DNA of 23,671 nt from NCBI GenBank assembly GCA_045545475.1, contig JAZQAZ010000006.1, positions 1-23,671 of the forward strand, given 5' to 3'. Source of the stretch: Clostridia bacterium (GTDB lineage Bacteria; Bacillota; Clostridia; CAKSNL01; HGM11501). The position numbers were made by a program, and so were the translations under genes. The notes below the pieces were generated by a model, which ran no database searches, was not told where the DNA came from, and saw only the letters and a list, made by a program, of their open reading frames with translations. Shown here in pieces: positions 1 through 22,921 of this stretch (the stretch's first letter is position 1; the number at the start of each line of letters is the position of its first letter).

Positions 1-40
1 TTTTGTTGTTCTGTAAATTGTTTTCTAATATTTTAATCAT
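1..40 (-). CDS. 5' end of a gene running off the left edge (MIKILENNLQNNK...), product unknown
   Basis: ATG at 40-38 on the minus strand, preceded by GGGGGTG Shine-Dalgarno (plus-strand cacccc around 50-56). Frame is open to the window edge; only 13 codons visible. Confidence 0.45.
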   Translation of the reverse strand, partial: MIKILENNLQNNK

Positions 41-448
41 AAAGGATTACACCCCCAAAAATAAATTTTATAATTATATTTTAATATAAGAAAAGAGTTT
101 TATTTAAAGATGATAGAATGTTATCAGAGATGTTGTAAATTGAAGTATGTTATTTATATTGGTATGATTTATAGTTTAATTCAGAAATAATATTTTGTGT
201 TTTGAATGAAGTTTTGTGGAACGATTTTGACTATAAATAACTGTATTAAGCAGGAATTTACAAGAAAAAAATACCCCTAAACTTATATATAATCATTTAT
301 ATCAACTAGTATTATTTGAGTTTAAAAAAGTTCTATTTTTATAATAAATAAACCACAAAAATTATCTTCATTATCATGGAAATTACATCTGGAAAAATCC
401 AAAAACAATAAGTATAATATAATCAAATTTAAAAAAAGGAGGTTCGCT

Positions 449-976
449 ATGAACGCAAACAAAAATTTCACAAAAGTTGTGACAGGAGAGGTAGTCCTCA
501 ACTATCCATGTCTAACCAAACCAAGAGAGAGTAGATTTGATTCTAATAGCTCTTTAAAGTATGGTACTACTATCATTATTCCTAAAGATGATGTACCTAC
601 AATAAAAGGTATTAAAAGGGCTATTGTTCATGCCAAATTACTTGGTAATTTTAAAGATGATGAGGATGTTAATTCGCCATTAAAAGATGGTGATATTGAA
701 TATCCCGACAATGAATTGTATAAAAACTCATACTTTTTATACACATCAACTTGTTTTAGACCTAATATAGTTGACGAAGATTTAAAAGAAATTGAAGAAA
801 ATATAGGAGAATATAAGTCGGGAACTGTAGCTAAGGTTAGTATGGTGTTTAACCCATATAATGTAAATGGTAATCGCGGGGTATCGGCTAGATTAAACAA
901 TGTTCAAATTTTACCAAGAAATAAATATTTAGAGTTGATGTCCTCTCCTCAGGATGATTTTGGGACAAGCGAATAA
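449..976 (+). CDS. DUF2815-family phage-type ssDNA-binding protein (T7 gp2.5-like)
   Basis: Motifs TKVVTGEV, KYGTTIIIPKDD, PLKDGD, SG...YNVNGNRGVSARLNNVQ and an acidic C-terminal DDF. GGAGG RBS just upstream. Confidence 0.85.
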   Translation: MNANKNFTKVVTGEVVLNYPCLTKPRESRFDSNSSLKYGTTIIIPKDDVPTIKGIKRAIVHAKLLGNFKDDEDVNSPLKDGDIEYPDNELYKNSYFLYTSTCFRPNIVDEDLKEIEENIGEYKSGTVAKVSMVFNPYNVNGNRGVSARLNNVQILPRNKYLELMSSPQDDFGTSE

Positions 977-988
977 ATAAATGAAATG

Positions 989-1037
989 GTGTAATAAATG
1001 TATTTTTTGAAAAAAACATTAAATACATTTATTACAC
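989..1037. repeat. Perfect 17-bp inverted repeat (GTGTAATAAATGTATTT / AAATACATTTATTACAC)
   Basis: Arms read directly at 989-1005 and 1021-1037, with a 15-nt spacer. Confidence 0.85.
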
Positions 1038-1053
1038 GGAAAGGAGATTTAAA

Positions 1054-2484
1054 ATGATAAAACATTGGGAAGAACCGAGATTATTTGATGCTTTCGACTT
1101 ACCAGCTTTTCCTATTGAGTGTCTACCATCTACAATGAGAAGATATGTAGGAACGATTTCAAAGAATCTTGCAACACCTATAGAAATGGCTGTGTTGGTT
1201 TCTTTATCCTTGATATCAGTTAGTACACAAGGAAGAGTTACAATAAATGTAAAAAAGGATTATAATGAATCAACTAATTTATATGTTTTAATTATCGCAG
1301 AACCAGGTGAAAGAAAAAGTCCTCTTTTAAAGTTAATGTCAAAACCCATTTATGAATACGAAAGAAATATAAATGAACAAATTAAGATTCAAATAAACAG
1401 AGAAAGAGCCGAATTAAAAAGGAAACAAAAGGAACTTATGGATTTGGAAGAACAAGGTGACATTGAAGAAGCAATTAAGAAGCAAAATGAAATTGACCAG
1501 ATGGAAAAGAATAAATCGCATTTAGTAAGATTAACGTCTGATGATTTTACTGTAGAAGCTCTTACAACCTTAATGGCTGAAAACAATGGTAAAATGTCGA
1601 TTATCTCATCTGAAGGAGGAATGTTCAACAATATATCAGGTAGATATAATAACAAAGTTTCCTTTGAAGTTTTATTAAAAGCCTTTTCCGGTGACACAAT
1701 TAGAGTTGATAGAAAATCAAGAGGACCGGAAATAATAGACAATGCTTTATTGACCATTCTTTTAATGGCTCAAGAAAGTGTACTTGAAGGAATCATGGAA
1801 AATGGAGATTTAAGAGGACAAGGATTATTAGGAAGATTTTTATATTGTGTTCCTAAATCACCATTGGGAAACAGAAAATATGAAACACCCCAATTAAACA
1901 AAGATATAATAGAAACATTTAATAACAAATTATTTGAGCTTCTTAATTGTAGGGATAATGTTTTGTTAACATTATCAGATGAGGCATATGAAATAAGTAA
2001 AGATTTTTTTAATTGGATTGAACCTAAACTTGTAGGCGAACTATATGAAATTCGAGATTGGGCAAGTAAATTACATGGTACATTTATTCGTTTAGCAGGA
2101 TTACTACACTGTATTGAATATGGTAGTAACTCAACAATTATAAATAAACAAACTATGGATAATGCAAGGAAGATTTCAATGTACTTTGTAGAACATTCAA
2201 AAAAAGCTTTTTCAATTATGGGTACTAATGAAGTTGTTATCAAAGCAAAGTATATATTAAAAAAATTAGAATCATTACACGTTACAGAAATATCAAAAAA
2301 AGATATTTATATACATTGTAGAAGTCGGTATTTCAAATCACCTGACGATATTATCAAACCCATAGAATTATTAATTGATTATAATTATCTTAGAGCGAAA
2401 GAGAATCAACCTACAAATTCAACAGGAAGGAAACCTTCAACTGTATATGAACTTAATCCGATATGGTTTTTAACGAAAATTTGA
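1054..2484 (+). CDS. YfjI / DUF3987-family P-loop ATPase (putative replication helicase of mobile elements)
   Basis: FPIECLP N-terminus, Walker A-like AEPGERKS, DDFTVEAL, SSEGG, LLKAFSGDTIRVDRKSR, GLLGRFLY, C-terminal GRKPSTVYELNP. AAGGAG RBS. Confidence 0.85.
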   Translation: MIKHWEEPRLFDAFDLPAFPIECLPSTMRRYVGTISKNLATPIEMAVLVSLSLISVSTQGRVTINVKKDYNESTNLYVLIIAEPGERKSPLLKLMSKPIYEYERNINEQIKIQINRERAELKRKQKELMDLEEQGDIEEAIKKQNEIDQMEKNKSHLVRLTSDDFTVEALTTLMAENNGKMSIISSEGGMFNNISGRYNNKVSFEVLLKAFSGDTIRVDRKSRGPEIIDNALLTILLMAQESVLEGIMENGDLRGQGLLGRFLYCVPKSPLGNRKYETPQLNKDIIETFNNKLFELLNCRDNVLLTLSDEAYEISKDFFNWIEPKLVGELYEIRDWASKLHGTFIRLAGLLHCIEYGSNSTIINKQTMDNARKISMYFVEHSKKAFSIMGTNEVVIKAKYILKKLESLHVTEISKKDIYIHCRSRYFKSPDDIIKPIELLIDYNYLRAKENQPTNSTGRKPSTVYELNPIWFLTKI

Positions 2485-2500
2485 AAGGAAGTAAAAAGCA

Positions 2501-2734
2501 ATGCATGTTAAAATTTTAGGGATAAAAAAAGTAAAGGGGACACATCCATATACAAAAAAATATAGGGATGGTTGTATAATTTTTTATTCCCATACAGATG
2601 AAAATGTTTTGGGCGAAAAAACCGACAGTAAATGGGTAGATGATAAATGTTATAAAACGGAAAATATAAAAATTGGTGAAAATTATAATATAGAATTTGC
2701 TAATTTTTTTGTTAACAAAATAGATGTCATATAA
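2501..2734 (+). CDS. Small hypothetical protein (77 aa), possibly a small beta-rich ssDNA-binding protein
   Basis: AAAGGAAG RBS, directly downstream of the DUF3987 gene. Function is inferred only from the alternating hydrophobic beta pattern. Confidence 0.65.
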   Translation: MHVKILGIKKVKGTHPYTKKYRDGCIIFYSHTDENVLGEKTDSKWVDDKCYKTENIKIGENYNIEFANFFVNKIDVI

Positions 2735-2998
2735 CAGTTTTAACCGTTTACATCAAGAAATATGTGTATTATAATATATTAATACTTTAAAGTACGTTGA
2801 GGTGTGTATTTACTCAACATTAATAAATAATCATAAAAAATACATTCCAAACGCTTTATAACAGATAAGGAGCGTTTGTTATGATGCAAAATGTAAAACT
2901 TATAAATCATAAAAAAGCGGTGTACTTTCATTATAATTTAGTTTATAATATAAAAGTTTCACTCCCTCTGTCTGATAGTGTGGGGAGTGAGGTGTTAT

Positions 2999-3178
2999 AT
3001 GATTAAGGATATCCAATCAGATAACACTACAAAACTAACTATTAACGGAATAGTAATCACAGTAAATTTTTTAAAAGATAGAAATTTTAGTGCAGAAAAT
3101 TTTGTTGGAAAGCTACTATTGGAAAATATGTTCGGGGAGGGTAGCAATGAAAAAACGAGTAAAGACTCTGTATCGTAA
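2999..3178 (+). CDS. Small hypothetical protein (59 aa) overlapping the recombinase start
   Basis: GAGGTG RBS at 2989-2994 before ATG at 2999, a better start than the ORF-track GTG at 2978. Its 3' end overlaps the recombinase by 32 nt. Confidence 0.65.
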   Translation: MIKDIQSDNTTKLTINGIVITVNFLKDRNFSAENFVGKLLLENMFGEGSNEKTSKDSVS

Positions 3179-4799
3179 CAGTACATTAAAACAATGTGCG
3201 ACATTAGTTGATGAAGAAAATAATAAATTTGACATACCTTTACAAAGCCGAGAATGTCAAAAATTTATTTCATTGCACCCTGATTGGATTTTAATTGATG
3301 AAAAGGTAGAGACAGGCATATCAGGTTACAAGGTATCGGCTAAAGACAGAGATAAAATTACTGAATTAAAAAATGAAGCATTACGTAAAGAATTTGATAT
3401 TCTTCTTGTCTTTATGTTTGACAGATTAGGTCGTATAGAAAGTGAAACCCCTTTTATAGTAGAATGGTTTGTTGAACAAGGAATCGAAGTATGGAGTGTA
3501 GTTGAAGGACAACAAAAATTTGATAATCACGTAGACAAACTTACAAATTATATTCGTTTCTGGCAAAGTGCTGGAGAATCAGCTAAAACAAGTACAAGGG
3601 TACGTAAGAAACGAGGACAAATGGTTGAAGATGGGTTATATGCAGGCGGTTATGTCCCTTATGGTTATAAGATTGTTAAGAAAGGAACTATTAATCACAA
3701 AAACCGAGAGGTTTATGATTTAGAAATTGACTCTTACGAATCAGATGTTGTGAGGTTAATATTTCAATTAGCATACGAAAATTTTTGGGGAGCAAGAAAA
3801 ATTTCCAATGAATTAGCCAAAAGAGGTATTAAAAATAAAAAAGGTAAATTTTTCGGACAATCTACAATTAACAGTATTATTGATAATATTTCATATACTG
3901 GTGTACTGAAAAGTGGTGAAACAGTATCTAAAATTCACCCACATTTACAAATTATTAAACCATCAGTTTTTGAATTTGTTCAAAAATTGAGACGTGAACG
4001 AAGTTCAAAAGATAAAGAAACAAAGGAAAAATCCCCAATGTCTTGTAATGACATATCAGATGTTCCTACTTTTGGGAAAGGTCTTGTATCAGGCATTATA
4101 CATTGCGATTGTTGTGGTGCTAAATTAAGAACAAAATCAACAAGATTAAACGGTCATAAACCAATCAGCGAAGATAACCCACGAATACCGACTTACGTAT
4201 GTGAAAATCGTTTGTATGAGGGCAAAAAAGAAAAAATCTGTATAAGTGATAATGTTCAGACACAATATAGAGCATACAAAATTGATGCTGTGATAGATGA
4301 AATGATAAAACAACTTTTAAGACGCACAAAAGCATTGCAAAGCGGTGAATTTGTCAATTACAAATATCAAACAGAGTGGAAACGGATACAAGGTAATCTC
4401 AATCACGTAAATACTTTGTATAAGAAAAAACAAAACGAAATTCGCTCAATGGAAAATAAGATTGTAAGTGCATCTCAATTTGATGAAGTTTTAAAAGAAT
4501 TACTTCAAATTCTAACAAGATTGAGAAAAGAAGCAGAAGCTTTATTTGAACAAGTGCAGAAATGCGAAAAAGACTTTGCGGAGTTACAAAAAAATTGCTA
4601 TGAAATAGAACAAGAATATAACAATGTTATCAAGTGGGCTGATATTTATGAAAATGCAGATTTACCGACAAAACAAATTATAGTTGCCCATCTTATTGAC
4701 AGTATATCAGTAAAGAAAGGGTATGAATTAACCGTTAATTTCAAAATCAATTTAGAACAGTACGAAAATGGATTAGAGTTTCAAGCACTATCGTCTTAA
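3147..4799 (+). CDS. Large serine recombinase (resolvase + recombinase + zinc-ribbon + coiled-coil domains)
   Basis: Catalytic LYRNST (YxRxS), FDILLVFMFDRLGR, GGYVPYGY, zinc ribbon CDCCGAKL...YVC and C-terminal coiled coil. Start moved to ATG 3147 behind the GGGGAGG RBS. Confidence 0.93.
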   Translation: MKKRVKTLYRNSTLKQCATLVDEENNKFDIPLQSRECQKFISLHPDWILIDEKVETGISGYKVSAKDRDKITELKNEALRKEFDILLVFMFDRLGRIESETPFIVEWFVEQGIEVWSVVEGQQKFDNHVDKLTNYIRFWQSAGESAKTSTRVRKKRGQMVEDGLYAGGYVPYGYKIVKKGTINHKNREVYDLEIDSYESDVVRLIFQLAYENFWGARKISNELAKRGIKNKKGKFFGQSTINSIIDNISYTGVLKSGETVSKIHPHLQIIKPSVFEFVQKLRRERSSKDKETKEKSPMSCNDISDVPTFGKGLVSGIIHCDCCGAKLRTKSTRLNGHKPISEDNPRIPTYVCENRLYEGKKEKICISDNVQTQYRAYKIDAVIDEMIKQLLRRTKALQSGEFVNYKYQTEWKRIQGNLNHVNTLYKKKQNEIRSMENKIVSASQFDEVLKELLQILTRLRKEAEALFEQVQKCEKDFAELQKNCYEIEQEYNNVIKWADIYENADLPTKQIIVAHLIDSISVKKGYELTVNFKINLEQYENGLEFQALSS

Positions 4800-4823
4800 T
4801 ATAGTATAAATGATTAATACAAT

Positions 4824-4869
4824 AAAAAAGGATTACTATTCATAAAATACGAATAGTAATCCTTTTTTT
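4824..4869. terminator. Bidirectional intrinsic terminator between the recombinase and tRNA-Pro
   Basis: AAAAAAGGATTACTATTC / GAATAGTAATCCTTTTTT inverted repeat with A and T tracts. Confidence 0.85.
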
Positions 4870-4945
4870 GGTCGGGATGACAGGATTTGAACCTGCGGCT
4901 TCTACGTCCCGAACGTAGCGCCCTACCAAACTGGGCCACATCCCG
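4869..4945 (-). tRNA. tRNA-Pro (anticodon CGG)
   Basis: Reverse complement CGGGATG TG GCCC AGTTTGGTA GGGC G CTACG TTCGGGA CGTAG AAGCC GCAGG TTCAAAT CCTGT CATCCCG A CCA folds as a full 77-nt cloverleaf with encoded CCA. Confidence 0.97.
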
Positions 4946-5143
4946 ATAATTCCATTAATGTTGTTTGATGTATGCTTCATTTATTAGATATTGTTGAGTA
5001 TACTCTGTGTCCAAGGTGTACTACCAAACTGGGCCACATCCCGATAATTCCATTAATGTTGTTTGATGTTTGCTTCATTTATTAGATATTGTTGAGTATA
5101 CTCTGTGTCCAAGGTGTACTACCAAACTGGGCCACATCCCGAT
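4923..5143 (-). repeat. Tandem 98-bp direct repeat (2 copies plus a 25-bp partial), each containing the 5' 23 nt of tRNA-Pro
   Basis: Units 4923-5020 and 5021-5118 differ at one base (A4972/T5070). Core CTACCAAACTGGGCCACATCCCGAT starts at 4923, 5021 and 5119. Confidence 0.97.
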
Positions 5144-5156
5144 TAACACAAAGAAT

Positions 5157-5185
5157 ATTATACATTAGCATCACGCTTTTGTCAA
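5157..5185 (-). promoter_or_regulatory. Consensus sigma-A promoter of tRNA-Pro
   Basis: TTGACA (5185-5180), 17-nt spacer, TATAAT (5162-5157). Confidence 0.88.
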
Positions 5186-5211
5186 GGAAAATCTTCTCTT
5201 TTATCCCCCAT

Positions 5212-5247
5212 AAAAAAGAGTATGCAGTTTTTCTGCACACTCTTTTC
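5212..5247 (-). terminator. Intrinsic terminator of the amidase-radA-ABC transporter operon
   Basis: Minus strand AAAAGAGTGTGCAG-loop-CTGCATACTCTTTTTT directly after the stop codon. Confidence 0.8.
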
Positions 5248-6987
5248 TTAAGATTCGTAAAGCTTATAAAGATTCTTATAAATGCCGCCTTTTGCAATTA
5301 ATTCGTCATGGCTTCCCGCTTCCTCTATTCCCTTATCAGTAAGAACAAGTATCATGTCCGCTCCTTTTATGGTTGTAAGCCTGTGAGCAATAGTGAAAGT
5401 TGTCCTTCCTTTTGCAAGGCGTGCAAGAGATTCCTTTACCAGAAGCTCACTCTCATTATCAAGTGCACTTGTGGCCTCGTCCAATATAAGTATAGGAGGA
5501 TTTTTAAGAAATACTCTCGCAATGCTTATCCTCTGCTTCTGCCCACCGGAAAGCTTGACTCCACGCTCTCCGACGTAGGTATTATATCCATCCGGCAAGT
5601 TCTTTATAAATTCGTCACATCCTGCCAAGGTTGCCGCTTTTTCAACCTCTTCCATGGTTGCTCCGGGTTTGCCGTAGGCAATATTTTCATAAATAGTTCC
5701 CGAGAAGAGATAAACATCCTGCTGTACCACACCGATATTTCCTCTCAGAGAATCCTGGGTATAGTCTCTGACATCCACACCATCAATTAAAATTCTGCCT
5801 TCCGTAACGTCATAAAATCGTGGAATTAAATTTACAAGTGTGGTTTTTCCGCCACCCGACGGACCGACAATAGCAATATTTTCGCCTTCGTTTACAGTTA
5901 AGTTTATTCCGGATAAAACTTCGCCTTCGCCATCAGAATAACCGAATTTCACATTTTCGAAATTTATTATTCCGCGAACCTTTGTAAATTCCTTTGCGTC
6001 TGTTTTGTCGACAATCTCAACCGGAGAGTCCATAATCTCTGTGAAACGCTCAATACCTGTCATGCCACGCTGGAACTGCTCTGTAAATTCCACAATTCTT
6101 CTTATGGCCGCAATCAGTGTGGATACATATAAAAGATATGCCGCATAGTCACCGGGGCTAAGCAATCCTTTAATCATGAAAAGTGCACCTGCCACCACGA
6201 CAATTATGTACATAAGACCGTCAAAAACTCTTACAGAAGTCTGAAAGCCTGCCATATAGCGATAGGTTTTATACTTAATTCCAAGAAAAGTTTTATTGCC
6301 TTTATCAAACTTGTCCCGTTCGATTTTCTCGTTGGCAAAGCTTTTTACTACTCTTATACCCAACATGCTGTCTTCCACCTGAGAATTAATTTCCCCTATC
6401 TGCTCACGGGATTCCTTGAATGCCTTCTTCATCTTTCTGTTATAATAAGTGGATACTATAAGCATAAAAGGCAATACTGCGAACATAATGAGTGTGAGCG
6501 GAAGATTCATTGACGAAAGAATTAAAAATGCCGCAACAATCTTTATTCCTGCAATAAAAAATTCCTCCGGGCAATGATGAGCAAATTCCGTTACATCAAA
6601 AAGGTCCGATGTAATCCTTGCCATAATCTGCCCCACCTTGGTGTTACTGTAATAAGAAAACGACAGCTTCATGAGGTGAGAAAACAAATCTGTTCTCATA
6701 TCCGTTTCTATTTTTGCACCCATTATATGCCCGTTATACGCCATAAAATAGTTGGCCGAAGCATCGATTATTCTCAAAAGAAGATATAATCCTCCGGCTT
6801 TCAGTACAAGGCTTACTGTGAGGGATGCAAAATCATCAATTGCCCTGTCTGTTATCTCCCTTACAATTAACGGCAGAATTATTTCGCATACCGTTGTAAG
6901 TGCGGCACACATTAAATCCAGTACCATTATCCATTTGTATTTCTTAAAATACGGCATAAACCGCTTTATCAATTGTGTAGCCTTCAT
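5248..6987 (-). CDS. ABC exporter, fused permease/ATP-binding protein (MsbA-like)
   Basis: N-terminal TM domain, Walker A GPSGGGKT, signature LSGGQKQR, Walker B ILILDEATSALD, AHRL switch. Confidence 0.95.
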   Translation of the reverse strand: MKATQLIKRFMPYFKKYKWIMVLDLMCAALTTVCEIILPLIVREITDRAIDDFASLTVSLVLKAGGLYLLLRIIDASANYFMAYNGHIMGAKIETDMRTDLFSHLMKLSFSYYSNTKVGQIMARITSDLFDVTEFAHHCPEEFFIAGIKIVAAFLILSSMNLPLTLIMFAVLPFMLIVSTYYNRKMKKAFKESREQIGEINSQVEDSMLGIRVVKSFANEKIERDKFDKGNKTFLGIKYKTYRYMAGFQTSVRVFDGLMYIIVVVAGALFMIKGLLSPGDYAAYLLYVSTLIAAIRRIVEFTEQFQRGMTGIERFTEIMDSPVEIVDKTDAKEFTKVRGIINFENVKFGYSDGEGEVLSGINLTVNEGENIAIVGPSGGGKTTLVNLIPRFYDVTEGRILIDGVDVRDYTQDSLRGNIGVVQQDVYLFSGTIYENIAYGKPGATMEEVEKAATLAGCDEFIKNLPDGYNTYVGERGVKLSGGQKQRISIARVFLKNPPILILDEATSALDNESELLVKESLARLAKGRTTFTIAHRLTTIKGADMILVLTDKGIEEAGSHDELIAKGGIYKNLYKLYES

Positions 6988-11059: not shown

Positions 11060-12391
11060 TTAATCGCTAACTGTTTTTATTTCGTCAATACCATAGTACA
11101 AAAGTGCTTCTATGACTTCTTCTGTTATTACCTCTCCACTTACTACAATGGGCACTGCAGGCGGACACGACACGGTAACAGAAGCACATATTTTCCCTTT
11201 GGCAAGCCGTGTTTCCGTTACTTCACTCTTTGCAAAAAAGGCCTCTCGTGCAGATATTTTTCGCACAGGATACGGAAGATGAGTAAAGCTTCTTTTAATT
11301 TCGCTTTTTGCATTTATCTCACAGAAAAACTTTTTCAATCTCCTAAAATCCCGGGTGGTATTTTGGGGAGAAATCATTAAAACAAGATAGTCATCATCAG
11401 AAAATTCCGCTTCCATTTTTGCTTTTCGCATCATTTTTGCAAGTTCAATCCCGGTGTATCCAGATTTTGCGGCATTTATCACAATTTTAAGAGGTTCGCT
11501 TTCCAATAGAACAAAACCTTTTTTCACAATTAAGGCTTTAACTTCTTTAATTTTTGCTATGCAGTCAGAAAGTTCCCTCCCGAAATTTCTCTTAATATAT
11601 AAATTGCACATATCAAGGGATTTCATTGTGAGATAAGACGGACTCGTGGAGGAGAAAAGAGCAATTTTTTCTCTTGCCGTTCCAATAAAGTCTTCCGCTC
11701 TTTTTGTAATATGAAGATATGCACCTCCTGTTAAAACAGGGAGCGTTTTATGTGCCGAATCACAGCAGATGTCTGCACCTTTATCAATAGGATGCATGCT
11801 TCCCTTCAAAAACTTAAGATATGCACCGTGGGCATTATCCACTAAAAGCGGAACATTATACTTATGACACACCTTCGAAATTTCTTCTATATCCCCTATT
11901 TGTCCCAGATAGTCAGGGGACGTTAAATAAACTGCGGAATATTTTCCTTCTGATGATGAAAGTGTAGCTTCCACATCAAAAGCCGTTATATCGCAGCTCA
12001 AAACACCATTTGCCGTTTTCGTCATAATCCAGTCTGCTTCAATGTCTAAAAGTGCAAGGGCATGTACAAAAGCTTTATGTACATTTCTTGCCGCAAGAAC
12101 ATACGTCTTTTCCCTCTCCGGCTTTTTAATCATCGAAAGCATTGCACATATTGCCGTACTTGAACCCTGGGTTATGTAAAAGCTTTTCCCGCTTCCGTAA
12201 AGAGCGGTTAAATTTTTCTCGCTTTCTTCAATGATTCCTTTTGCCGTACTTAATACATCCGCCCCGTCAATTTCGGTAATGTCGTATTTTTCAATTCCCA
12301 GCGGTCCTTTTCCTTTATGTCCAGGCATATGAAATCTCGATGTTCCGCTTTTTGCATAACGCTCTATAAAATCCGAAACAGGCGTTTTCAT
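11060..12391 (-). CDS. PLP-dependent Orn/Lys/Arg decarboxylase family protein
   Basis: RFHMPGHKG, DITEIDGAD, RNVHKA, VDNAHGA, PLP lysine in DSAHKTLP, STSPSY, CPPAVPIV. Substrate not determinable. Confidence 0.9.
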   Translation of the reverse strand: MKTPVSDFIERYAKSGTSRFHMPGHKGKGPLGIEKYDITEIDGADVLSTAKGIIEESEKNLTALYGSGKSFYITQGSSTAICAMLSMIKKPEREKTYVLAARNVHKAFVHALALLDIEADWIMTKTANGVLSCDITAFDVEATLSSSEGKYSAVYLTSPDYLGQIGDIEEISKVCHKYNVPLLVDNAHGAYLKFLKGSMHPIDKGADICCDSAHKTLPVLTGGAYLHITKRAEDFIGTAREKIALFSSTSPSYLTMKSLDMCNLYIKRNFGRELSDCIAKIKEVKALIVKKGFVLLESEPLKIVINAAKSGYTGIELAKMMRKAKMEAEFSDDDYLVLMISPQNTTRDFRRLKKFFCEINAKSEIKRSFTHLPYPVRKISAREAFFAKSEVTETRLAKGKICASVTVSCPPAVPIVVSGEVITEEVIEALLYYGIDEIKTVSD

Positions 12392-22834: not shown

Positions 22835-22921
22835 GCAGGTGTGGCGGAATTGGCAGACGCGTACGGTTCAGGTCCGTATGAGAGCAATTTCATGCAGGTT
22901 CAAGTCCTGTTACCTGCACCA
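22835..22921 (+). tRNA. tRNA-Leu (anticodon CAG)
   Basis: GCAGGTG.../TACCTGC A CCA acceptor, anticodon arm TACGG-TTCAGGT-CCGTA, long variable arm, GGTTCAAGTCC T-arm. 87 nt. Confidence 0.97.

What the first reader, a model, noticed from the sequence alone, without database searches (positions are those of the whole stretch)
4923..5143. Array of 98-bp units carrying the tRNA-Pro 5' end, stacked between the tRNA and its promoter, next to a serine recombinase
Seen, reading the minus strand: consensus promoter, tRNA nt 1-23, 75 bp, tRNA nt 1-23, 75 bp, intact tRNA. The promoter-proximal fragment (5141-5119) sits where the tRNA would normally start. The two units differ by one base. Known: integrative elements usually duplicate tRNA 3' ends, and described tRNA-linked repeats such as those at E. 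coli tyrT hold 3' fragments downstream; 5' fragments upstream are atypical. Inference: this is the expected product (B-core-X-core-X-core-B') of repeated integration into the D-arm of a gene-less 98-bp mini-element that restores the tRNA 5' end, perhaps moved in trans by the neighbouring or another integrase. A deletion remnant that later duplicated is the alternative.
Basis: partly seen in the sequence, partly recalled or inferred. Interest (0 to 1): 0.85.

Follow-up and report, generated by a model that had tools for sequence, protein, structure and literature searches.

The report
Stacked integration scars upstream of tRNA-Pro
The repeat is two copies of the junction scar left where a mobile element with a large serine recombinase cut the proline tRNA gene near its start and brought its own replacement tRNA, a new twist on a known way for mobile DNA to occupy tRNA genes.

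Summary
There are 2.3 copies of a 98-bp unit at 4923-5143. Each unit holds tRNA-Pro(CGG) nt 1-23 plus a 75-nt spacer, and the array lies between a consensus promoter and the intact tRNA.

The gene-less 98-bp mini-element reading is not supported. Close homologues of the neighbouring large serine recombinase (80-92% aa) occur in six other loci from other Clostridia. In five of the six, the same module is present: recombinase, terminator, full tRNA-Pro, spacer, then a 5' fragment ending exactly at tRNA nt 23.

Both ends were found in two elements of about 12 and 16 kb. There the 5' fragment and a distal 3' part rebuild the host tRNA, and the full tRNA is element cargo. The rebuilt attP is a roughly 52-bp imperfect palindrome.

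The unit is therefore an attL scar. Because the cargo tRNA recreates the target, scars can stack. Two other loci carry two unlike units, which only serial integration explains.

Contigs from two metagenome runs with about 99% identical host flank have 0 units.

Closest known: tRNA-dependent lysogeny, described for tyrosine integrases. Verdict: new variant of a known kind. Whether the second unit here came from re-integration or local duplication is unresolved.

The parts
5157..5185 (-). Host sigma-70 type promoter of tRNA-Pro; the only promoter-like site upstream of the tRNA on this strand
   Evidence: 12 of 12 consensus matches, 17-nt spacer. The same promoter sits directly before the intact tRNA in G010, G003 and G007.
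5119..5141 (-). Promoter-proximal 5' fragment, tRNA-Pro nt 1-23: the B arm of the outer attL, read as the remnant of the host's original tRNA
   Evidence: 100% match to tRNA nt 1-23. It ends at the same base as all 9 junctions in the family.
5044..5118 (-). Spacer copy 2 (75 nt). Its first 25 nt in tRNA orientation (5118-5094) is the conserved P' arm of the recombinase site.
   Evidence: The motif TACWCCTTGGACACAGRGTATACYC is present in 8 of 9 junctions.
5021..5043 (-). Second 5' fragment, tRNA-Pro nt 1-23 (B arm of the inner attL)
4946..5020 (-). Spacer copy 1 (75 nt), P' arm at 5020-4996. It differs from copy 2 by one base (4972 versus 5070).
4869..4945 (-). Intact tRNA-Pro(CGG), read as element cargo that replaces the cut host gene and recreates the target site
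   Evidence: ARAGORN; Rfam tRNA 67.5 bits. DNA homology with family members in other hosts runs through it.
4824..4868 (-). Intrinsic terminator of the tRNA, part of the element
   Evidence: 20-pair stem followed by a T run. The hairpin is conserved in L024-L027, L034 and L037.
3147..4799 (+). Large serine recombinase. The ORF is listed from GTG 3090, but the likely start is ATG 3147.
   Evidence: Pfam Resolvase 9.5e-12, Recombinase 8.5e-14, Zn_ribbon_recom 2.3e-05. L024 and L027 have a stop in the stretch before the ATG. Homologues at 80-92% aa lie beside the same module.
2755..5045 (.). Integration module shared with family members in other species: recombinase, terminator, tRNA, spacer and one fragment
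   Evidence: blastn gives 85-90% identity over 2755/2788-5045 to L024-L027 and 80% to L037.
1..2754 (+). Rest of the element, cut by the contig start: Enc34-type ssDNA-binding protein 449-976, DUF3987 protein 1054-2484, small ORF 2501-2734
   Evidence: Pfam. This part is not homologous to the G041 and G042 element bodies.

Best explanation
Each 98-bp unit is an attL junction scar of an integrative element of about 12-16 kb. The element's large serine recombinase recombines a roughly 52-bp palindromic attP with the D-arm of tRNA-Pro(CGG); the crossover is at the AG of nt 22-23. The host tRNA is cut and not rebuilt. The element instead carries a complete tRNA-Pro(CGG) gene with its own terminator 74-180 nt inside attL, in the orientation of the host promoter. 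After integration the order is: promoter, host nt 1-23, spacer, cargo tRNA, terminator, recombinase, element body, P arm, host nt 24-77. The cargo tRNA is presumably transcribed from the host promoter through the leader and released by RNase P (inferred; no promoter-like site was seen in the spacer). Because the cargo tRNA is itself a fresh target, a further integration converts it into a second fragment plus spacer, and scars stack upstream. In this genome two near-identical units are stacked before one recombinase module. I put about 45% on re-integration, followed by loss of one element copy through homologous recombination or carriage of the extra unit by the element. I put about 35% on local duplication of a single scar between the 25-nt cores. 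Shown: the anatomy, the shared module across hosts, both junctions in two relatives, and heterogeneous stacks. Inferred: catalysis by this enzyme, the transcription route, and the route to the second unit.
For: 1) Of six other loci with a close homologue of the recombinase (80-92% aa), five (L025, L026, L027, L034, L037) show a fragment ending at nt 23, the conserved P' arm, a spacer, a full tRNA-Pro(CGG), the terminator and the recombinase, in different host contexts. 2) In G041 the 5' fragment has acceptor strand CGGGATA and the 3' part 11.9 kb away has TATCCCG, so together they make one tRNA. The internal tRNA has CGGGAAT/ATTCCCG, so it is cargo. G042 also shows both ends, about 15.9 kb apart. 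3) The rebuilt attP has 20 of 25 (G041) and 19 of 25 (G042) complementary pairs around a central AG, against 6.6 +/- 2.2 in 5000 shuffles (maximum 15-17). 4) L025 and L037 carry two unlike units. The outer unit of G042 aligns over 97 nt to the G041 unit with 5 mismatches, including the G041-type tRNA 5' end, so a G041-type element was there first. 5) Same-genus genomes G003, G007 and G010 have promoter then tRNA with no unit. Contigs in runs X3 and X4 join 4922 to 5119 on a host flank with 13-15 differences in 1679-1853 nt. 6) The spacer matches no Rfam family and has no promoter-like site. 7) Domain architecture of a large serine recombinase and an N-terminal YRNST stretch (the motif is recalled).
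Against: No attR, P arm or tRNA 3' fragment was found in this assembly, so the element's far end and size here are unknown. Window 1-2754 is not homologous to the G041 and G042 element bodies. In this genome the cargo tRNA is 100% identical to the tRNA of unoccupied same-genus genomes, so host and element origin of the fragments cannot be told apart by sequence here. The two units differ by one base, so re-integration and local duplication predict the same sequence. G010 holds 108 bp 100% identical to 4779-4886 downstream of a unit-free tRNA, so units can also be absent beside remnants of the element. All read evidence comes from contigs. No recombination, excision or transcription has been observed.
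Confidence: 0.75

Rival explanations
1. A single integration left one scar, and the second unit arose later by replication slippage or unequal exchange between the 25-nt cores. This shares the origin of the unit with the best explanation and differs only in how the second copy arose.
For: The units differ by one base in 98. Exact 25-nt direct repeats flank each spacer. Only one recombinase module follows and the contig runs through without a branch. G010 has an element remnant but no unit, which fits unit loss by the same kind of exchange.
Against: In this family, both other two-unit loci (2 of 2: L025 and L037) have unlike units that duplication cannot make, so re-integration is a demonstrated route. 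A 25-nt stretch is a short substrate for homologous exchange (established knowledge).
Confidence: 0.35
2. One reading: a gene-less 98-bp circular mini-element that carries the tRNA 5' end integrates repeatedly, moved in trans by an integrase.
For: The geometry core-spacer-core-spacer-core fits on paper. No element body lies between the two units.
Against: The spacer is contiguous with the tRNA, terminator and recombinase across five other hosts. Only its first 25 nt is an att arm; the partner arm lies 11.9-15.9 kb away at the other end of the element. The spacer was found free-standing nowhere: 0 hits for a 30-mer in viral and metagenome contigs, and 0 viral and 1 metagenome hit for the arm motif, that one being beside a recombinase. 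A 98-bp circle would hold no complete attP.
Confidence: 0.03
3. Assembly artefact: one unit, or none, was inflated by the assembler.
For: The assembly is a short-read draft of 50 contigs. Repeats of 98 bp are hard for short reads.
Against: A Logan contig of run X1 spans spacer-core-spacer (5016-5143, one other letter). The two copies differ at one base. Two-unit stacks occur in two other assemblies.
Confidence: 0.03
4. Ordinary fixed leader or regulatory RNA upstream of the tRNA, unrelated to mobile DNA.
For: It lies between promoter and tRNA and would be transcribed.
Against: It is absent from three same-genus genomes and from near-identical strains in two runs. No Rfam family matches. It always travels with the recombinase.
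Confidence: 0.02

Closest known systems
tRNA-dependent lysogeny of actinobacteriophages (Guerrero-Bustamante & Hatfull 2024, PMC10865867; abstract and passages read)
   Same: The element integrates into a host tRNA gene, shares only a short core with it and does not rebuild the tRNA. [quoted passage not shown]
   Different: Those systems are phages with tyrosine integrases and a crossover of about 10 bp at the anticodon region. Their phage tRNA lies elsewhere in the genome with its own promoter. Here the enzyme is a large serine recombinase and the crossover is in the D-arm at nt 22-23. The cargo tRNA sits 74-180 nt inside attL behind the host promoter, so 5' fragments pile up upstream. The G041 element examined shows replication and cargo genes but no capsid genes.
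Classical tRNA-targeting islands and prophages (Williams 2002, recalled, paper not held; Islander/TIGER as cited in PMC12884075, passages read)
   Same: A tRNA gene serves as the attachment site, the integrase gene lies next to the tRNA, and the locus is a hot spot for several elements.
   Different: Classical elements carry the tRNA 3' part in attP, rebuild the gene at the junction and leave 3' fragments downstream. Here the tRNA is not rebuilt, a whole copy is supplied and the 5' fragments lie upstream.
Serial integration at one tRNA, as in tycheposon islands (bioRxiv 10.1101/2020.12.28.424599; passages read)
   Same: Successive integrations occur at the same tRNA, neighbouring elements are separated by partial tRNA copies, and remnants accumulate. 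A minority of tycheposons have large serine recombinases.
   Different: There the newcomers push older elements away from the full tRNA and the partial copies lie between whole elements. Here short scars without element bodies accumulate between promoter and tRNA.
Serine-recombinase proviruses beside tRNA genes in Thermotogota and Firmicutes (bioRxiv 10.1101/2020.11.07.368316; passages read)
   Same: [quoted passage not shown]
   Different: The passages I saw give no att sites, no crossover position and no replacement tRNA. Relatedness of those enzymes to this one was not tested.

Membership tests
Large serine recombinase integrative elements | N-terminal resolvase catalytic domain followed by Recombinase and zinc-ribbon domains | tested here: met
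   Pfam PF00239 9.5e-12, PF07508 8.5e-14, PF13408 2.3e-05 (the last at 25.1 bits against a cut-off of 25.3). Weak match to PhiC31 integrase chains, E 4e-4.
Large serine recombinase integrative elements | Catalytic serine in a conserved N-terminal Y-x-R-x-S-T motif | tested here: inconclusive
   A YRNST stretch is invariant in 6 of 6 aligned homologues. The motif definition is recalled and was not checked against a reference alignment.
Large serine recombinase integrative elements | Short attP (about 50 bp) that is an imperfect inverted repeat around a central dinucleotide, with little identity to attB | tested here: met
   Rebuilt from the attL and attR of G041 and G042: 20 of 25 and 19 of 25 complementary pairs around AG, against 6.6 +/- 2.2 in shuffles. 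attB and attP share TGGTAG at the crossover. This could not be rebuilt for the window's own element because no attR was found.
Large serine recombinase integrative elements | The enzyme catalyses attP x attB recombination | not testable with these tools
   Needs an in vivo or in vitro assay.
tRNA-dependent lysogeny (PMC10865867) | attB overlaps a host tRNA and the tRNA is not reconstructed at the junction | tested here: met
   In 9 of 9 junctions, nt 1-23 is followed by non-tRNA sequence. The host 3' part was found at the far end in G041 and G042.
tRNA-dependent lysogeny (PMC10865867) | [quoted passage not shown] | tested here: met
   A full tRNA-Pro(CGG) is present in the window, L025, L026, L027, L034 and L037.
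tRNA-dependent lysogeny (PMC10865867) | Tyrosine-family integrase | tested here: not met
   The enzyme here is a serine recombinase. This locus is therefore not filed as a member; it works in a like manner.
tRNA-dependent lysogeny (PMC10865867) | Temperate phage whose tRNA is required for viable lysogens | not testable with these tools
   No capsid or terminase family was found in the eight ORFs of the G041 element scanned. tRNA-Pro(CGG) is the only tRNA-Pro in the assembly, but only 35 tRNAs are assembled.
Classical tRNA 3'-end integrating islands | attP holds the tRNA 3' part, the gene is rebuilt and a 3' direct repeat lies at the far end | tested here: not met
   The crossover is at nt 22-23 and the duplicated parts are 5' fragments upstream.

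The most novel reading that the evidence does not exclude
The cargo tRNA makes the locus a self-renewing landing pad. Every integration destroys one tRNA-Pro copy, installs the next, and pushes a dated 5' fragment plus spacer towards the promoter. The leader then becomes an ordered ledger of past integrations by different family members. Mixed pairing of an outer attL with an inner attR would let an element pick up and carry earlier scars, and would leave elements locked beside a scar-free tRNA, as in G010.
Probability: 0.4. Interest if true: 0.65.

Novelty: new variant of a known kind. Interest (0 to 1): 0.55.

Why it matters
It extends the recently described principle of cutting a tRNA gene and bringing a replacement from tyrosine integrases of actinobacteriophages to a large serine recombinase family in gut Clostridia. 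The cis layout is new: the replacement tRNA is slotted behind the host promoter and recreates the target.

It explains upstream tRNA 5' fragments, which standard island finders that look for 3' repeats would miss.

It also offers a defined enzyme and site pair: an attP of about 52 bp and a tRNA D-arm attB that tolerates variation at nt 3-15. This pair could be tested as a genome-engineering tool for poorly tractable Clostridia.

Tried and rejected
Source of the spacer:
- A 30-mer from inside the spacer gave 0 hits in viral contigs and 0 in metagenome contigs.
- The degenerate 25-nt arm motif gave 0 hits in viral contigs and 1 in metagenome contigs, L037.
- blastn of 4860-5260 against phages and plasmids matched only the tRNA part.

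Far end of the element in this genome:
- No tRNA 3' fragment was found in this assembly.
- There was no homology to the G041 or G042 far ends.
- No P-arm-like site was found with up to 6 mismatches other than the two P' arms themselves; three weak hits with 6 mismatches look like chance.
- A candidate 3' fragment in G045 (L040) proved to be part of another tRNA gene, not an attR.

Wider survey and reads:
- Six distant recombinase homologues (33-40% aa, L028-L033) have no tRNA in their flanks, so tRNA targeting is a trait of the close clade only.
- The class-wide sample gave one close homologue (89% aa) and one distant match (39%) in 398 other genomes scored; two genomes were not scored.
- Read laying returned only Logan contigs. 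Stretches without cover, depth figures and the low-identity pieces over the recombinase in X3 and X4 are not used as evidence.
- Rfam at E<=1 found nothing credible but the tRNA.
- PDB sequence search gave only weak PhiC31-type matches.
- tblastn against phages and plasmids found nothing above 37.4% identity.

Literature:
- No paper describing a serine recombinase crossover in a tRNA D-arm with a cis replacement tRNA was found by six searches.
- The library lacks most subscription journals, and supplements were not opened.
- Williams 2002 was not held and is cited from recall.

Full report
**Observation**

The array is real.
- Tandem Repeats Finder gives 4923-5143, period 98, 2.3 copies, 99% matches.
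- The repeat finder gives two 98-nt copies with one mismatch and three exact 25-nt cores spaced 98 nt apart.
- ARAGORN places tRNA-Pro(CGG) at 4869-4945 on the minus strand.
- Read on that strand, the order is: a 12-of-12 consensus promoter at 5185-5157; tRNA nt 1-23 (5141-5119); 75 nt; tRNA nt 1-23 (5043-5021); 75 nt; the intact tRNA; and a 20-pair terminator hairpin at 4868-4824.
- The 3' end of a 569-codon ORF at 3090-4799 (+) then faces the tRNA. It has Resolvase, Recombinase and zinc-ribbon domains, so it is a large serine recombinase.
- Left of it lie an Enc34-type ssDNA-binding gene and a DUF3987 gene, and the contig starts inside this mobile-looking DNA.
- Right of the promoter lie host genes: an ABC transporter, a RadA-like protein, an amidase and BipA.
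- The spacer has no other copy in the 2.74-Mb assembly.

**Empty sites**

In the same genus, G007, G010 and G003 have the homologous promoter followed directly by a tRNA that is 100% identical over 81-83 nt. These are 0 units.

Logan contigs of runs X3 and X4 come from two studies. They join 4922 to 5119, skipping both units, and continue into a host flank with 13-15 differences in 1679-1853 nt. Very close strains therefore lack the array.

A 128-nt contig of run X1 covers 5016-5143 with one other letter. It spans a spacer-core-spacer junction that only an array of two or more units contains. X1 may be the source sample, so this speaks against an assembler artefact rather than giving independent support.

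**What the unit belongs to**

The search for related loci with the recombinase returned 11 loci.
- Five are close: L024-L027 at 88-92% aa over the full length, and L034 at 80% over the C-terminal part.
- Six are distant (33-40% aa) and have no tRNA in their flanks.
- The arm motif brought in one more close locus, L037.

DNA homology to the window runs from about 2755-2788 through the recombinase, the terminator and the tRNA, and on to 5045. That is exactly one spacer plus one fragment. Beyond that point each locus has a different host context: its own promoter, or a tRNA-Ser in L026.

In five of these six loci the layout is: host flank, tRNA nt 1-23, a conserved 25-nt arm (TACWCCTTGGACACAGRGTATACYC), the rest of the spacer, a full tRNA-Pro(CGG), terminator, recombinase.

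All 9 junctions in the 6 loci, the window included, fall right after the same base, nt 23. Eight carry the conserved arm and one carries a diverged version.

The sixth locus, L024, has lost the 5' part of the element tRNA to the end of another element.

**Both ends**

Searching the genomes behind these loci with the tRNA found 3' fragments downstream on the same contigs. I fetched both regions.

In G041 (L035):
- The left junction is after base 397.
- The element tRNA is at 472-548.
- The right junction is after base 12338 and is followed by tRNA nt 24-77 and a different terminator.
- The element is 11,941 bp.
- The upstream fragment begins CGGGATA and the distal 3' part ends TATCCCG, so the two make one coherent tRNA.
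- The internal tRNA has CGGGAAT and ATTCCCG.
- The fragment is therefore what is left of the host gene, and the full tRNA is cargo.

G042 (L036) shows the same arrangement with the ends about 15.9 kb apart.

Joining the right-end arm to the spacer arm gives an imperfect inverted repeat. It has 20 of 25 (G041) and 19 of 25 (G042) complementary pairs around a central AG. Shuffles give 6.6 +/- 2.2, with a maximum of 15-17 in 5000. The tRNA site itself has only 6 of 25.

A short palindromic attP, an asymmetric attB and a few shared bases at the crossover (TGGTAG) are the anatomy expected of a large serine recombinase site (established knowledge). The central dinucleotide is inferred from the symmetry.

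The G041 element also encodes a rolling-circle-type replication protein, an Enc34-type ssDNA-binding protein, a 950-aa BspA-type leucine-rich-repeat protein and two tyrosine-recombinase-like ORFs. No capsid family was found in the eight ORFs scanned.

**Stacking**

L025/L036 and L037 each carry two units that are not alike.

In G042 the outer fragment is host-type and pairs with the distal 3' part. The inner fragment is identical to the 5' end of the G041-type cargo tRNA. The outer unit aligns to the G041 unit over 97 nt with 5 mismatches. A G041-type element must have integrated first. A second family member then integrated into its cargo tRNA.

In L037 the outer unit has the diverged arm and the inner one the standard arm.

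Local duplication cannot make such stacks, so re-integration into the cargo tRNA is a demonstrated route in this family. In G042 only one element body follows. The earlier body was therefore lost. Likely routes are homologous recombination between the tandem, similar elements, or an extra scar that travelled inside the incoming element after an outer attL paired with an inner attR (inference).

**This genome**

The two units differ at one base, and the cargo tRNA equals the genus-type tRNA. Sequence therefore cannot tell re-integration from slippage between the 25-nt cores. I give the two routes roughly 45% and 35%.

The far end was not found in the assembly. The assembly is a 50-contig draft with 35 tRNAs.

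The spacer has no promoter-like site and matches no Rfam family. The cargo tRNA is therefore most simply expressed from the host promoter through a 196-nt leader and trimmed by RNase P (inference).

**Comparison with what is known**

- **Closest described mechanism:** tRNA-dependent lysogeny (PMC10865867; abstract and passages read). There a tyrosine integrase recombines at a short core in a host tRNA, the tRNA is not rebuilt, and a phage tRNA of the same isotype complements the loss. The present family meets those functional features. It fails the tyrosine-integrase feature and differs in crossover position, in the cis placement of the tRNA behind the host promoter, and in the stacking that results.
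- **Serine recombinases beside tRNA genes:** these have been noted in Thermotogota and Firmicutes proviruses. The passages I read give no att details.
- **Serial integration leaving partial tRNAs:** this is described for tycheposons.
- **Classical islands:** they rebuild the tRNA from a 3' part (recalled from Williams 2002, not held; stated in passages of PMC12884075).

Six literature searches found no description of a D-arm crossover with a cis replacement tRNA. The library is incomplete, and supplements were not opened.

**Verdict**

The gene-less 98-bp mini-element is not supported. The unit is the attL scar of a 12-16 kb serine-recombinase element that carries its own tRNA-Pro. This is a new variant of a known kind and of moderate interest.

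The family looks rare. One close homologue (89% aa) and one distant match (39%) were found in 398 other class genomes scored. Five close loci came from one scan of the species-representative collection, which finds close relatives only.

Noticed in passing
L007 (G002) 1300-1580; L009 (G009) 1302-1580; L011 (G039) 485-770; G009:C18:13407-13460; L024 5650-6000: A second, unrelated element family uses the same tRNA. In these loci host tRNA-Pro nt 1-41 is followed by a conserved spacer of about 160 nt and a full variant tRNA-Pro, then a tyrosine integrase. G009 holds the native 3' part (nt 32-77) on another contig, so the core is about 10 nt in the anticodon loop. This matches tRNA-dependent lysogency as described for tyrosine integrases, here in gut Clostridia. 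In L024 the far end of such an element has cut the cargo tRNA of the serine-recombinase element.
   Followed up: partly
L005 (G010) 1804-1911 versus window 4779-4886: 108 bp are 100% identical between species whose promoter regions are only about 83% alike. The stretch covers tRNA nt 60-77, the element terminator and the last 20 nt of the recombinase gene. It lies downstream of a unit-free tRNA and is followed by unrelated DNA with an IS200-like transposase start. It is probably a decayed remnant of the same element.
   Followed up: partly
L004 (G007), L005 (G010), L006 (G003), 200-250 nt downstream of the tRNA: Duplicates of the tRNA 3' end (nt 60-77) follow short non-coding inserts. These are classical 3'-end att scars, so the locus is a hot spot for at least three kinds of elements.
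   Followed up: no
window 4869-4945; L025, L026 versus L027, L034, L037: In 3 of 6 loci (the window, L025 outer fragment, L026) the promoter-proximal fragment is identical to the 5' 23 nt of the cargo tRNA. In G042 the whole cargo tRNA equals the rebuilt host tRNA. In the other 3 loci they differ. How an element comes to carry the host-type tRNA is unexplained; capture, gene conversion or a narrow host range are possible.
   Followed up: partly
window 3090-3146; L024 4001-4060; L027 4001-4060: The 19 codons before ATG 3147 contain an in-frame stop in L024 and L027. The recombinase therefore most likely starts at 3147, not at the GTG of the ORF listing.
   Followed up: yes
L035 4906-7758 (-), 8093-8689 (-), 8972-9991 (+): The G041 element carries a 950-aa BspA-type leucine-rich-repeat surface protein and two tyrosine-recombinase-like ORFs besides the serine recombinase. 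The body is not shared with the window's element, so the family is mosaic around a common integration module.
   Followed up: no
window 5092-5144, run X2: A low-depth (2.6) contig has a core, the arm, 38 other letters and then another core. This looks like a relative with a different, shorter spacer in another sample (table 5c).
   Followed up: no
window 22835-22921: A tRNA-Leu(CAG) lies near the other end of the window. It was not examined for fragments or elements.
   Followed up: no
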